NCBI RefSeq assembly: GCF_035594765.1
Contig: NC_085845.1
Location: 83,074,024 to 83,138,023, forward strand
Source of the DNA: Anolis carolinensis
Taxonomy: Eukaryota
Length of the DNA: 64,000 bases
Reading direction: 5' to 3'
In this document: positions 44,601 to 47,600 of the stretch, piece by piece
Position numbering within the stretch: position 1 is the first letter of the stretch
How the letters are laid out: the number at the start of each line of letters is the position of its first letter
Position numbers: made by a program

Positions 44601-47600
44601 ACAGAATCGGGGGGGGGGGGATTCAAAACGAAAACAAAATAGGTTTCACCCTAATATTTTCTAAGATTTACTTATATTTATGAAAATATAGGTTGATCCT
44701 ATGTAGAAGTTCACAGCATTAACATTACGGCAAATACTACAACTGTTCCAGAGTTCCACTGACCTTGGTTTTAACATTTCTCAGTTTGTCTGTGGCAATG
44801 AAAAAGGCAGGTTCATTTTTGTGGACACTCAACCAGCAAAGAGTGAGAAATCTAGCTAAGCCATCTCGTCTCCTTTCTGCCATTCAGAAAAGTAACAACT
44901 GACCGGATGTATTAACACCATTTAATAAAGATAATAATAATGGCTTGGGCAGATTAAGCCTCTCATTTCCATATCTGCATAAAAGACATGGAATAGGCTA
45001 AATATGTCCTGTAGGTTTGACCCATATGTTCTTCTCACAATCAAAGAAATCACAAGCCAAATTTAAATTTCATTACAATTTATTGACCCATTTATGTAAA
45101 TGATTTTAAAATGCCAATATAATTGGTTCTTTTCTATTTATTCTTAATACGAAAATTAAAACAAACCATAATTCAGCACAATTTTGATGTAATTTTAGAC
45201 ATTCAGAGATGAAATGTGACCCTTTATAATCAAGTATGGGCAAACTTCGGCCTGGTAGGCTGTTAGGAAATGTGGGAGTTGAAGTTCAAAACACCTGGAG
45301 GGCCGAAGTTTGCCCATACTTGCATCATAATATAATGAGGAAGAGGCCATAGTTCTGTGTCAGAGCCAATATTTACATACAGAACATTCTTGATACGTAA
45401 CTCTGGTGCCTCAAGGAAAACTCTTAGAGGAAGGAACCACTACTCATTCAGATATTACTGGACTCCAAATTCAGTCCATCTGGAGATGCTACAGGGTCCC
45501 CAACTCTGTATCAAAGAACATCTGTTTCTTCGTATATCATGTTTCAATAATGTCAAGGGATCTTTTCTTTTCAGCAGATAGGAAGGTTTGGACACTGGTT
45601 GCCCAGTGACATGCAAAGTTCTAGAATTCCCACAGTCATTCACTTTATGGCAGTTGAAGGACAGCATTCTCTCCTAATCCAAGCAAGCTGTCTTCTTACT
45701 TCAAGATGCATCCCCTGTTCTCTCTGCTACTCCCCTTGTGTTCAGTCTTTTCTCAGTATGCAGGAGCAATGTGTCCTTATTTATTATTACCACCATTGTT
45801 TTTCATCTGCTCTGACCAAGAAAACCATATTTATCAGCAGCAAGACAACAAACACCAGACTTCACATTTATGGGGCAGGATTACTAAAACGTATTATGTA
45901 AGAACTGCAGGGTTTATTTCAAGAACTGGGAAGCAACAGGCAGAACTGCCATCTTTCTGCTGCTGGTACTGGAGCTCTCCTTTTACCGGCTACTGCAACA
46001 AACATAAAACAGACTATGAAATCATGAACCTAAGCGAAAATGGGAAATGCCACCCAGAACAGTTAGATTTGAAATGGACAGCATCCAAAGATCCAGTTCA
46101 AACAGTGCAACCCAAAATACTTCAGAAAAATACTGTTTATTACGAGTATTTTCACCTGGTTGTTAGAAAAGAAAGCCACTTAGCACATGCAAACCAAATG
46201 GTACAGGTACGGCTTATCCCTGCTCTTTTGCTGAACAACACATACATTGAAAAATGTGGGATAGCAGTAATACCAACAGAAATATTTCCAGTGGTAATAC
46301 CTTCCAAGCAGTATGCTTTGACAGCACACATTGAAGTGTGTGATGTCCATGGAGCATATAACCATATAACTTTACAGACAAAAGTATATGACCCATCAAA
46401 AGGCCAGCGAACAGAGGTATTTCTGAATGAATTACAAAGTTTGATTAGTGGACCAACAGATCCAATAACAGCTGTTGTGAAAAGTAGGGATTACTTTAGG
46501 GCACTTGATGTCATCTACATAGTGGCTTCTATTTTAAATGATATAGAAGTTACACAAAGATTACATTCCGCGAAGACTGAGCTGCGGGAACTCCTTCTAA
46601 ATAGGTCTGCAGGAATTCCTACTACAAGTGTAACGGGAGCAAATCAAATGATCTCAAATATTTTTCAAATAACACATGAAGTTGCAGAGATAAACAGAAA
46701 ATCACAACTACTTGCAATGAAAAAAATCAAAGAAGTTATCGAAGAACTGAAAAAGCATGGCAACAAAGATTTGGGATTGAAAGGAAGAGAGATGCTTGGC
46801 AATGCTATTCTTGAAGGACTGTCCAATGTACAGAAAGCATCTTTGTTAGAAGGTGGAAATATCCACATAAATGGGGTTAAGGAAACCATTTATATGACCG
46901 AGATATTAGCAGATCTAGTCTTAGAAGGTAAAATTCCAGAAGAAAATGAAACTATTATGGAAGCCAAAGACTGGACTATCACATTAAGAAAAAATGAAAA
47001 AGGAGGTATTTCTGATCCATCCTCCAGGAGAAGAGATGGCAAGAACTACTTTTACTTCAAAATGAAACAAGAGGATAGTGATGAATTAACAAGAGATGCT
47101 GTAGTTTCCACGATTCTTTATGAGTTTGATAATAACCCTTTTCCTTGGTTGCCGTACGCCAGTGATATCAACACAATGATAACTGGATTCAAGATGACAG
47201 GAACCAAATATAATGGTGACAGGATTGGGATCGTGCCTGATGTTGCTGAAATGATCATGACTAGAAAAGACGAGAAAAGGAATGCCACTTTTCAGGTCAT
47301 GATCAGACATGATAAAAAACTCCCTAAAGCCACTGGAGAATTTAGTGTTGAAGTACTTAGGCAATCCAAAAACATTTTTATTCAGATTGTGACAAATAAG
47401 AAAACTGTTTTCCAGGTCTTCATATATCCGGGTCACAAGGTCAGCTATGATCCCATAGCTTTTTTCAGTGTTTCCTATAATAAGACGTCAGTGCCAATGG
47501 GAAAGTATTCTAGTGATGGTGACTGTGCATTTAAGGCCCCTTATATAGTTTGTCTTTCCCAGATATTGCTCAGATCCATATTCCAAGACAGCAGAGCAGA

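What the first reader, a model, noticed from the sequence alone, without database searches (positions are those of the whole stretch)
45706..46400. Copy C lost ~800 aa of ectodomain through two in-frame deletions
Seen by manual alignment to A. C follows A up to CCWY (C Y88, A Y87) and then jumps to FTGYC (C F93, A F739), about 647 aa removed. It jumps again from PTEIF (C F194, A F838) to PVVIPSKQYAL (A P999), about 160 aa removed. Both junctions keep frame and the signal peptide. The 8-mer GTAATACC flanks the second junction (46267-46274 and 46294-46301). Inference: two separate frame-preserving deletions suggest selection for a minimal-ectodomain polycystin that keeps GAIN/GPS, PLAT and the channel but lacks most of the N-terminal and REJ region.
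Basis: seen in the sequence. Interest (0 to 1): 0.72.

Follow-up and report, generated by a model that had tools for sequence, protein, structure and literature searches.

The report
Short-ectodomain PKDREJ paralog in a lizard
The third of three neighbouring intronless sperm-receptor-type polycystin genes is intact but lacks about 810 amino acids of the outer domain that its two neighbours have, and it looks like an old, still-working shortened paralog rather than a recent or artefactual deletion.

Summary
Observation confirmed. The window holds three tandem single-ORF polycystin (PKDREJ-type) genes: A 18640-26388, B 34757-42427, C 45706-51204. C aligns to A at C1-88/A1-87, C93-194/A739-838 (E 5e-23; B E 3.5e-32) and C195-end/A999-end.

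Interpretation partly supported. The copies are only 44-47% identical and about equidistant, with dS above 1. Three tandem PKDREJ duplicates in squamates are already in print (PMC7038749). So this is a difference between ancient paralogs, not a fresh deletion.

C looks functional: an open 1832-codon frame, Pfam PLAT and channel scores equal to or above those of A and B, the highest scores of the three to solved PKD1L3, PKD2L1 and PKD2 channels, and dN/dS about 0.3 like its neighbours.

Selection for shortening is not shown. Being in frame shows only that the gene survived. The 8-mer is at chance level. Loss in C is secure only for the REJ-profile part. No orthologs or reads could be examined.

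The parts
18640..26388 (+). Copy A, full-length intronless PKDREJ-type polycystin, 2582 aa
   Evidence: ORF. Pfam: REJ 310.8 bits (612-1058), PLAT, Polycystin_dom, PKD_channel.
34757..42427 (+). Copy B, full-length intronless PKDREJ-type polycystin, 2556 aa
   Evidence: ORF. Pfam: REJ 285 bits, PLAT, Polycystin_dom, PKD_channel.
45706..51204 (+). Copy C, short-ectodomain paralog, 1832 aa, uninterrupted ORF
   Evidence: AATAAA at 51239, 35 nt after the stop.
45706..45768 (+). C aa 1-21: hydrophobic leader (putative signal peptide, ends AGA)
   Evidence: Best 11-residue hydropathy 2.3 at aa 4-14, aligned with the A and B leaders. No signal-peptide predictor was available.
45769..45969 (+). C aa 22-88: N-terminal module shared with A1-87 and B (LPPL, C35, YQ, W56, Y.R..G, P..C.W)
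   Evidence: blastp E 1.9e-13; alignments.
45970..45981 (+). Junction 1: four orphan codons (WSSP) between the A87 and A739 homology
   Evidence: Placement on A639-642 is at chance level (983 of 2000 shuffles).
45982..46287 (+). C aa 93-194: retained REJ piece, equal to A739-838 and B742-841
   Evidence: E 5.2e-23 and 3.5e-32. Pfam REJ profile 127-199 at C96-169. dN/dS 0.27-0.31.
46267..46301 (+). Junction 2 (46287/46288), flanked by GTAATACC at 46267-46274 and 46294-46301
   Evidence: The repeat is at chance level.
46288..47910 (+). C aa 195-735: end of the REJ region plus the helical and beta part homologous to A999-1540 (GAIN-like), with the GPS-like C..W..C..W..CxC at aa 661-691 and no HL(T/S)
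   Evidence: Helix-then-strand pattern only, from a low-confidence model.
47923..47979 (+). C aa 740-758: first transmembrane segment
   Evidence: Hydropathy 3.49. Aligned to the start of solved polycystin-1 chains.
48067..48387 (+). C aa 788-894: PLAT domain
   Evidence: Pfam, 71.4 bits.
49684..50976 (+). C aa 1327-1757: Polycystin_dom plus PKD_channel
   Evidence: Pfam 171.3 and 173.7 bits. PKD1L3 chain 7d7e_A, E 7.9e-37.
18901..20853 (+). A aa 88-738: first block with no counterpart in C (in B: 35024-36979)
21154..21633 (+). A aa 839-998: second block with no counterpart in C (in B: 37280-37759)

Best explanation
C is the third member of the old squamate tandem triplet of intronless PKDREJ-type polycystin genes. 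It encodes an intact receptor or channel subunit of the polycystin-1 family. Its extracellular part is reduced to a leader, a roughly 67-aa N-terminal module, one roughly 100-aa REJ unit, a short remnant of about 60 aa, and the GAIN-like region. The membrane part (TM1, PLAT, TM2-11, channel-like domain) is complete.

Shown:
- the anatomy
- the two in-frame gaps
- the age of the paralogs
- the preservation of C's domains

Inferred:
- At least the REJ-profile portions were lost in C's lineage by two or more in-frame deletions.
- These are old, because C's remaining ectodomain has since been remodelled, with an excess of C-only substitutions and loss of cysteines whose likely partners lay in the missing blocks.
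- C still works, most likely on sperm with a PKD2-type partner as described for mammalian PKDREJ, with altered or reduced ligand recognition compared with A and B. That would be subfunctionalisation among three paralogs.
For: Anatomy and junctions.

Old paralogs:
- Identity over 1734 shared columns is AB 0.462, AC 0.467, BC 0.443.
- dS is 1.2-1.5.
- There is no flank homology between copies apart from short repeat elements.
- PMC7038749 (passages) reports 'three tandem duplicates within squamates'.

Loss in C for the REJ part: A and B match Pfam REJ in one stretch (profile 4-434 and 2-441), while C reaches only 32.5 bits in two stretches.

C is constrained:
- The 1832-codon frame is open. For this base composition, P(no stop) is about 1e-55.
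- Pfam PKD_channel scores 173.7 bits in C against 129.9 in A and 138.6 in B. Polycystin_dom scores 171.3 against 171.6 and 148.7. PLAT scores 71.4 against 72.3 and 63.
- Bits to solved outgroup channels, in the order C/A/B: PKD1L3 129.2/119.2/89.2, PKD2L1 109.6/74.1/68.9, PKD2 (6a70_A) 69.0/57.5/57.1.
- Pairwise dN/dS is 0.30 (A-C) and 0.30 (B-C) against 0.35 (A-B). The published value for sauropsid PKDREJ is 0.25 (PMC10776941, section 14).
- In the membrane half, sites where only one copy differs number A 121, B 167, C 117 of 944 columns.

Remodelling after the loss:
- In the shared ectodomain such sites number A 80, B 74, C 119 of 722 columns (p 0.0014). C's excess in the ectodomain against the membrane half gives chi2 14.9, p 1e-4.
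- Five cysteines conserved in A and B are replaced in C (at C54, 180, 320, 445, 448) and three are new (C23, 86, 212). That leaves 14, an even number, in C22-735.

PKDREJ type: single ORF, and no HL(T/S) after CxC in any of the three copies, as stated for PKDREJ in PMC9672506 (passage).
Against: - No ortholog of C, no outgroup and no reads could be examined. The age of the gaps, their presence in other species and the direction of change for A88-611 are therefore all inferred.
- Against polycystin-1 chains, C (127.8 bits) is no better than B (128.6) and lower than A (166.1).
- dS is saturated, so dN/dS is rough and averages over the whole history. It cannot exclude recent loss of function.
- C's faster ectodomain could mean relaxed constraint rather than adaptation.
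- The star-tree 'C branch' would also absorb any internal branch if A and B are sisters.
- The blocks missing from C are as conserved between A and B (398 of 810 identical) as the blocks kept (368 of 722; p 0.51). C gave up sequence that matters in its neighbours.
- Junction 2 appears to cut inside structural units rather than between them. This rests only on low-confidence secondary structure.
- Expression and partner are taken from mammalian PKDREJ literature, not tested.
Confidence: 0.7

Rival explanations
1. Part of the length difference is gain in A and B, not loss in C. On this view A88-611, which matches no known domain, was acquired or expanded in the A/B lineage, and C lost only the REJ-profile portions (about 127 + 160 aa).
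For: - Pfam finds nothing in A88-638 or the B equivalent at E<=10 (0 families for each).
- PDB sequences give 0 hits for A1-1540 at E<=1.
- The Atlas gives no usable hit for A88-638.
- In the shared ectodomain A and B are closer to each other than to C (dAB 0.67 against 0.80 and 0.78), which would fit A and B being sisters.
Against: - The gap is contiguous with the missing REJ-profile start (A612-738), so one deletion is simpler than a gain plus an abutting loss.
- A88-552 is well conserved between A and B (up to 70% in A153-202), so it is not a loose recent insert.
- In the membrane half A and B are not closer to each other than to C, so A/B sisterhood is not established.
Confidence: 0.2
2. 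C is a dying or recently dead copy. The deletions disabled ligand binding and the frame is open only because too little time has passed.
For: - C-only substitutions are in excess in what remains of the ectodomain (119 against 80 and 74).
- Five cysteines conserved in A and B are lost.
- Junction 2 seems to cut through folded units (low-confidence model).
Against: - The open 1832-codon frame, although by itself it excludes only long-standing decay.
- C's channel, Polycystin_dom and PLAT scores are equal to or above those of A and B.
- C has the highest scores of the three to PKD1L3, PKD2L1 and PKD2.
- C has the fewest unique changes in the membrane half (117 against 121 and 167).
- The retained REJ piece has dN/dS 0.27-0.31.
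- The cysteine changes leave an even count (14), which suggests repair rather than decay.
Confidence: 0.1
3. Assembly artefact: the missing blocks exist in the animal and were dropped by a collapse or mis-join.
For: None from the sequence. Tandem paralogs are a classic trouble spot, and no reads were available.
Against: - There is no N anywhere in the window.
- Both junctions are in frame within a continuous ORF.
- The paralogs are only about 60% identical in DNA, too far apart to collapse.
- Substitutions around the junctions fit a long history without the blocks: Cys to Tyr at C180, and a new Cys at C86.
- The Atlas holds the same 1832-aa protein letter for letter, though that record may come from this same assembly.
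Confidence: 0.03
4. C descends from a retro-copied, aberrantly spliced transcript of a full-length copy, the two gaps being cryptic introns.
For: Both gaps are clean and in frame. The gene family is intronless.
Against: - At the aligned borders, 0 of 4 deleted segments (two in A, two in B) start with GT and end with AG. With about 40% DNA divergence this test is weak.
- C lies 3.3 kb downstream of B on the same strand, as expected of tandem DNA duplication rather than retroposition.
Confidence: 0.02

Closest known systems
PKDREJ (polycystin family receptor for egg jelly), and the three tandem PKDREJ duplicates reported for squamates (Karin et al., Mol Biol Evol 2020, PMC7038749)
   Same: - Single uninterrupted coding exon.
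- REJ, GPS-like, PLAT and channel-like architecture.
- No HL(T/S) at the GPS (PMC9672506 passage).
- Three same-strand tandem copies.
- High dN/dS, about 0.3 (published 0.25 in PMC10776941).
   Different: C lacks most of the REJ region and the N-terminal 550 aa that A and B have. None of the passages I read mentions a shortened copy. The paper's supplements, which may list exon lengths, were closed. Which of the paper's copy names corresponds to C is not known.
Polycystin-1 (PKD1), and PKD1L3 in its solved complex with PKD2L1
   Same: C738-1012 and the channel part align to solved polycystin-1 chains (E 2.2e-36). C1288-1760 aligns to PKD1L3 (E 7.9e-37). The likely mode of action is the same: one PKD1-type subunit with PKD2-type subunits. 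That is established for these proteins and is inference for C.
   Different: - Pfam finds no LRR, PKD-repeat or C-lectin domains.
- There is no GPS cleavage triad.
- The gene is intronless.
- The ectodomain is far shorter.
PKD1L2, the automatic name of the nearest Atlas cluster. Its short form starts at exon 12 (PMC1934368 passage).
   Same: The Atlas's best cluster (score 0.94, representative 1801 aa, 127 members; PLAT, Polycystin_dom, PKD_channel) is auto-named 'polycystic kidney disease protein 1-like 2'. A short-ectodomain form of a PKD1-family protein is a known idea.
   Different: The PKD1L2 short form comes from an alternative start in a multi-exon gene. C is a separate intronless gene with internal in-frame gaps. 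The Atlas name is automatic, and the cluster may be C's own.
Sea urchin SpREJ family (10 members, PMC1934368)
   Same: A family of REJ-containing paralogs linked to sperm function (passages only).
   Different: Distant lineage. I did not compare sequences.

Membership tests
Polycystin-1 (PKD1) family of 11-TM receptors | REJ domain in the ectodomain | tested here: met
   A 310.8 bits, B 285 bits, C 32.5 bits (cut-off 25). C matches in two fragments only, the best being C96-169 = profile 127-199 of 452. C passes the score but holds only a fraction of the domain.
Polycystin-1 (PKD1) family of 11-TM receptors | GAIN/GPS region just before TM1 | tested here: inconclusive
   No Pfam GPS or GAIN hit at E<=0.01 in any copy. 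The C..W..C..W..CxC pattern is visible in all three. The helix-then-strand pattern comes only from a model with mean pLDDT 33.1.
Polycystin-1 (PKD1) family of 11-TM receptors | PLAT domain in the first cytoplasmic loop | tested here: met
   C788-894, 71.4 bits. A 72.3 bits, B 63 bits.
Polycystin-1 (PKD1) family of 11-TM receptors | Eleven transmembrane segments, the last six channel-like | tested here: inconclusive
   A simple hydropathy scan finds 9 distinct segments in C at its threshold. Polycystin_dom and PKD_channel hits and alignments to solved PC1 and PKD1L3 chains cover the region. No topology predictor was available.
PKDREJ subfamily | Intronless coding region | tested here: met
   Each copy is one ATG-to-stop ORF covering leader to C-terminus. 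'Intronless hPKDREJ' in PMC1934368 (passage).
PKDREJ subfamily | GPS without the HL(T/S) cleavage triad | tested here: met
   CIC is followed by EAK (A), KAK (B) and TGK (C). PMC9672506 passage.
PKDREJ subfamily | Orthology and synteny with vertebrate PKDREJ | not testable with these tools
   No eukaryotic genome or protein collection was open. 20 flank ORFs gave no gene-family Pfam hit, only three reverse-transcriptase fragments.
PKDREJ subfamily | Male germ-cell expression | not testable with these tools
   No expression data.
PKD1L2 (automatic Atlas name) | Multi-exon gene | tested here: not met
   C is a single ORF. PKD1L2 has at least 12 exons according to the PMC1934368 passage.

The most novel reading that the evidence does not exclude
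C is a squamate-wide, sperm-expressed 'minimal-ectodomain' PKDREJ that has been kept by selection since the ancient triplication. It would work beside two full-length neighbours. It would be a natural deletion experiment showing that a leader module, one REJ unit and the GAIN-like region are enough for a working polycystin-1-family receptor, and that the paralogs divided ligand recognition among them.
Probability: 0.3. Interest if true: 0.55.

Novelty: new variant of a known kind. Interest (0 to 1): 0.35.

Why it matters
What the roughly 1000-aa REJ module of polycystin-1-family proteins does is poorly understood (PMC3677617, abstract). A naturally shortened paralog that is still conserved, next to two full-length copies in one genome, would mark which ectodomain parts are dispensable for folding, trafficking and channel assembly and which are tied to ligand recognition. 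It would also be a case of domain loss after duplication in a fast-evolving fertilisation gene.

On the practical side, users of PKDREJ as a long-exon phylogenomic marker in squamates need to know that one paralog lacks about 2.4 kb.

As it stands this is an ordinary, solid annotation-level finding. The triplication is published and the protein is already predicted in a public record.

Tried and rejected
1. Structure prediction to see whether the gaps follow domain borders. C1-740 gave mean pLDDT 33.1 (0 residues at 70 or above). A560-1110 gave mean pLDDT 36.4 (9 residues at 70 or above). Each alignment had only 3 sequences. The models are too poor, so fold search was not run and only rough secondary structure was used.
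2. Internal repeat register of the REJ units, by hhalign on A+B segment profiles: 0 of 10 pairs above 1% probability.
3. Identity of the missing N-terminal block. Pfam at E<=10 gave 0 families, the Atlas gave no usable hit, and PDB sequences gave 0 hits.
4. The GTAATACC pair as a deletion scar: chance level, and both copies remain. The two 27-nt units it starts are otherwise unlike, judged by reading the sequence.
5. Microhomology. A and B have a Phe codon (TTT or TTC) at both borders of gap 2, and A has TGGTAC near both borders of gap 1. C keeps both sides of each, so a simple microhomology join is not shown.
6. WSSP as a third retained island: chance level.
7. Cryptic-intron borders: 0 of 4.
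8. Remnants of the missing blocks elsewhere in the window: none.
9. Flank genes for synteny: 20 ORFs scanned, only three reverse-transcriptase fragments.

- Genome contigs holds only bacteria and archaea, so it was not used.
- Paper supplements were closed.

In the passages I read, none mentions a shortened squamate PKDREJ copy.
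Full report
WHAT IS THERE

The window carries three large uninterrupted ORFs on the + strand:
- A: 18640-26388, 2582 aa
- B: 34757-42427, 2556 aa
- C: 45706-51204, 1832 aa

Pfam finds REJ, PLAT, Polycystin_dom and PKD_channel in all three. REJ scores 310.8 bits in A and 285 in B, each as one stretch covering profile positions 4-434 and 2-441 of 452. In C it scores only 32.5 bits, in two fragments, the best being C96-169 = profile 127-199.

The window has no N. I take the window to be from a squamate reptile, not from a human. 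It shows three tandem intronless PKDREJ-type genes as described for squamates.

THE OBSERVATION

blastp of C1-230 gives:
- C1-119 ~ A1-118 (E 1.9e-13)
- C93-194 ~ A739-838 (E 5.2e-23)
- C93-194 ~ B742-841 (56% identity, E 3.5e-32)
- C190-230 ~ A994-1034, which is the start of a 1657-residue alignment running to both C-termini (45% identity; 42% to B)

A three-way L-INS-i alignment puts C's gaps opposite A88-638 plus A643-738 and opposite A839-998.

The codon view confirms C Y88 = A Y87, C F93 = A F739, C F194 = A F838 and C P195 = A P999.

Junction 1 lies between nt 45969 and 45982 and holds four orphan codons (WSSP). The aligner places them on A639-642, but 983 of 2000 shuffles do as well. 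The first gap is therefore best read as one block of 651 aa, 647 net.

Junction 2 lies between nt 46287 and 46288 and removes 160 aa.

The missing blocks are nowhere else in the window, and there is no fourth polycystin fragment.

THE 8-MER

GTAATACC is at 46267 and 46294 as stated, and once more at 57261.

An exact direct repeat of 8 nt or more occurs in 28 of 544 60-nt stretches of ORF C, 13 of 769 of A, 13 of 762 of B and 403 of 6394 of the window. With two junctions inspected this is near chance.

It is also the wrong signature. Slippage or microhomology joining leaves one copy of the repeat, and here both remain. Both copies encode V-I-P at places where B has V-P.

Other small similarities exist at the borders. 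A and B have a Phe codon on both sides of gap 2, and A has TGGTAC near both sides of gap 1. C retains both sides, so no mechanism can be read off.

At the aligned borders, none of the four deleted segments in A and B begins with GT and ends with AG. This weakly argues against a retro-copied spliced transcript. So does C's position 3.3 kb downstream of B on the same strand.

HOW OLD

The copies are far apart and nearly equidistant.
- Over 1734 shared columns, identity is AB 0.462, AC 0.467 and BC 0.443.
- Silent-site distances are 1.2-1.5, which is saturated.
- The intergenic flanks share nothing but short repeat elements.
- Karin et al. [quoted passage not shown] The triplet is therefore known and old. 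Their supplements, which may list the exon lengths, were closed. None of the passages I read there, nor in the papers found, mentions a shortened copy.

PKDREJ TYPE

All three copies are intronless. All three lack the HL(T/S) triad after the GPS CxC: EAK, KAK and TGK follow instead. PMC9672506 states this for PKDREJ (passage), and PMC1934368 calls human PKDREJ intronless (passage).

The Atlas holds protein C letter for letter. Its nearest cluster has score 0.94, a representative of 1801 aa and 127 members, with PLAT, Polycystin_dom and PKD_channel. It is auto-named 'PKD1-like 2'. That is an automatic label and the cluster may be C's own. Its length is a lead that similarly short proteins exist elsewhere, no more than that.

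IS C ALIVE?

Evidence for:
- The 1832-codon frame is open. For this base composition, P(no stop) is about 1e-55, which rules out long-standing decay only.
- C's Pfam scores equal or exceed those of A and B: PKD_channel 173.7 against 129.9 and 138.6, Polycystin_dom 171.3 against 171.6 and 148.7, PLAT 71.4 against 72.3 and 63.
- Against solved outgroup channels C scores highest of the three. In the order C/A/B: PKD1L3 129.2/119.2/89.2, PKD2L1 109.6/74.1/68.9, PKD2 (6a70_A) 69.0/57.5/57.1.
- In the membrane half, sites where only one copy differs number A 121, B 167 and C 117 of 944.
- Pairwise dN/dS is about 0.30 for A-C and B-C and 0.35 for A-B. It is 0.27-0.31 in the retained REJ piece. The published value for sauropsid PKDREJ is 0.25 (PMC10776941, section 14).

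Evidence against, or limits:
- Against polycystin-1 chains, A scores higher (166.1) than C (127.8) or B (128.6).
- dS is saturated, so these ratios average the whole history and cannot exclude recent inactivation.
- In the shared ectodomain C has an excess of private changes: A 80, B 74 and C 119 of 722 (p 0.0014). Contrasted with the membrane half this gives chi2 14.9, p 1e-4. This can mean relaxation or adaptation, and part of it could be an internal A+B branch.

SIGNS THAT THE GAPS ARE OLD

Five cysteines that A and B share are replaced in C, at C54, 180, 320, 445 and 448. The last two form a CxxC pair. Three cysteines are new, at C23, C86 and C212. That leaves 14 cysteines in C22-735.

C180 lies just before junction 2, where two neighbouring cysteines of A were removed with the gap (alignment). 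C86 lies just before junction 1.

This looks like tidying up of unpaired cysteines after the loss. It is inference, not proof.

WHAT WAS LOST

The blocks absent from C are as conserved between A and B (398 of 810 identical) as the blocks kept (368 of 722; p 0.51). C therefore lacks sequence that is under constraint in its neighbours.

Loss in C is secure for the REJ-profile parts: roughly profile 1-125 and, by my interpolation, 225-375. For A88-611 nothing is known. Pfam finds no family, PDB gives no hit, the Atlas gives no usable hit, and no outgroup was available. A gain in A and B cannot be excluded for that part. I give this 0.2.

My two structure predictions were too poor to test whether the gaps follow unit borders (mean pLDDT 33.1 and 36.4). 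Their secondary structure suggests that C93-~170 is one whole strand-rich unit. It also suggests that junction 2 joins the first ~23 residues of the next unit to the last ~37 of the one after, which would be a cut through units. This is weak evidence. hhalign found no repeat register (0 of 10 pairs). Fold search was not run on such models.

VERDICT

The reading 'two in-frame deletions in C' is reasonable for at least the REJ parts.

The event is not a fresh loss in a young copy. It is a long-standing difference between ancient, published paralogs. 'Selection for a minimal ectodomain' is not shown. In-frame junctions are a condition for the ORF being seen at all.

The most likely picture (0.7) is a functional, sub-functionalised, short-ectodomain PKDREJ paralog.

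What stayed unchecked:
- orthologs in other squamates and outgroups
- reads across the junctions
- expression
- the supplements of PMC7038749

Noticed in passing
window 31233-31751 (+), 52200-52727 (-), 54055-54528 (-): ORF fragments with reverse-transcriptase (RVT_1) similarity (E 3.7e-06, 2.9e-08, 7.8e-06). Two of the three score below Pfam's cut-off. They are probably decayed LINE-type retroelements in the intergenic stretches.
   Followed up: partly
window 45240-45323 and 14975-15110: A palindromic repeat element of about 70-130 nt, 94% identical over 69 nt and also matching itself in reverse (90% over 60 nt). It lies about 0.4 kb upstream of C and 3.5 kb upstream of A. It looks like a small mobile element rather than a shared promoter.
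   Followed up: partly
C aa 1016-1150 (window 48751-49155): A cytoplasmic or loop stretch where the three copies are only 24-27% identical and C has extra residues. A and B show gaps of 23, 8 and 13 columns, and B a further 15. dN/dS there is 0.6-0.8.
   Followed up: no
C aa 445 and 448 (window 47038-47049); A aa 1245 and 1248: A CxxC pair (C-R-N-C) shared by A and B is G-K-N-Y in C, so both cysteines were lost together.
   Followed up: no
Copy B, 34757-42427: B is the fastest-changing copy in the membrane half (167 private changes against 121 and 117 of 944 columns) and scores lowest to PKD1L3 (89.2 bits). This recalls the 'very rapidly evolving' PKDREJ_B of PMC7038749, but the name correspondence is unverified.
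   Followed up: no
window 14001-16000 and 62001-64000: G+C rises to 0.49 and 0.54 against about 0.38 elsewhere. The ORFs there gave no Pfam hit. These may be CpG-island-like promoter regions or exons of unrecognised neighbours.
   Followed up: partly
A aa 1488-1491, B aa 1494-1497, C aa 688-691: All three copies have H-C-I-C followed by a variable linker of about 20-30 aa before a conserved FLA(G/S)K. None has the HL(T/S) cleavage triad, so autoproteolysis at the GPS is unlikely in any of them.
   Followed up: partly
literature: PMC10776941 (section 14) reports almost only one copy of each TRP and PKD member in sauropsids. PMC7038749 reports three tandem PKDREJ copies in squamates. The paralogs seem to be under-counted in gene-family surveys.
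   Followed up: no
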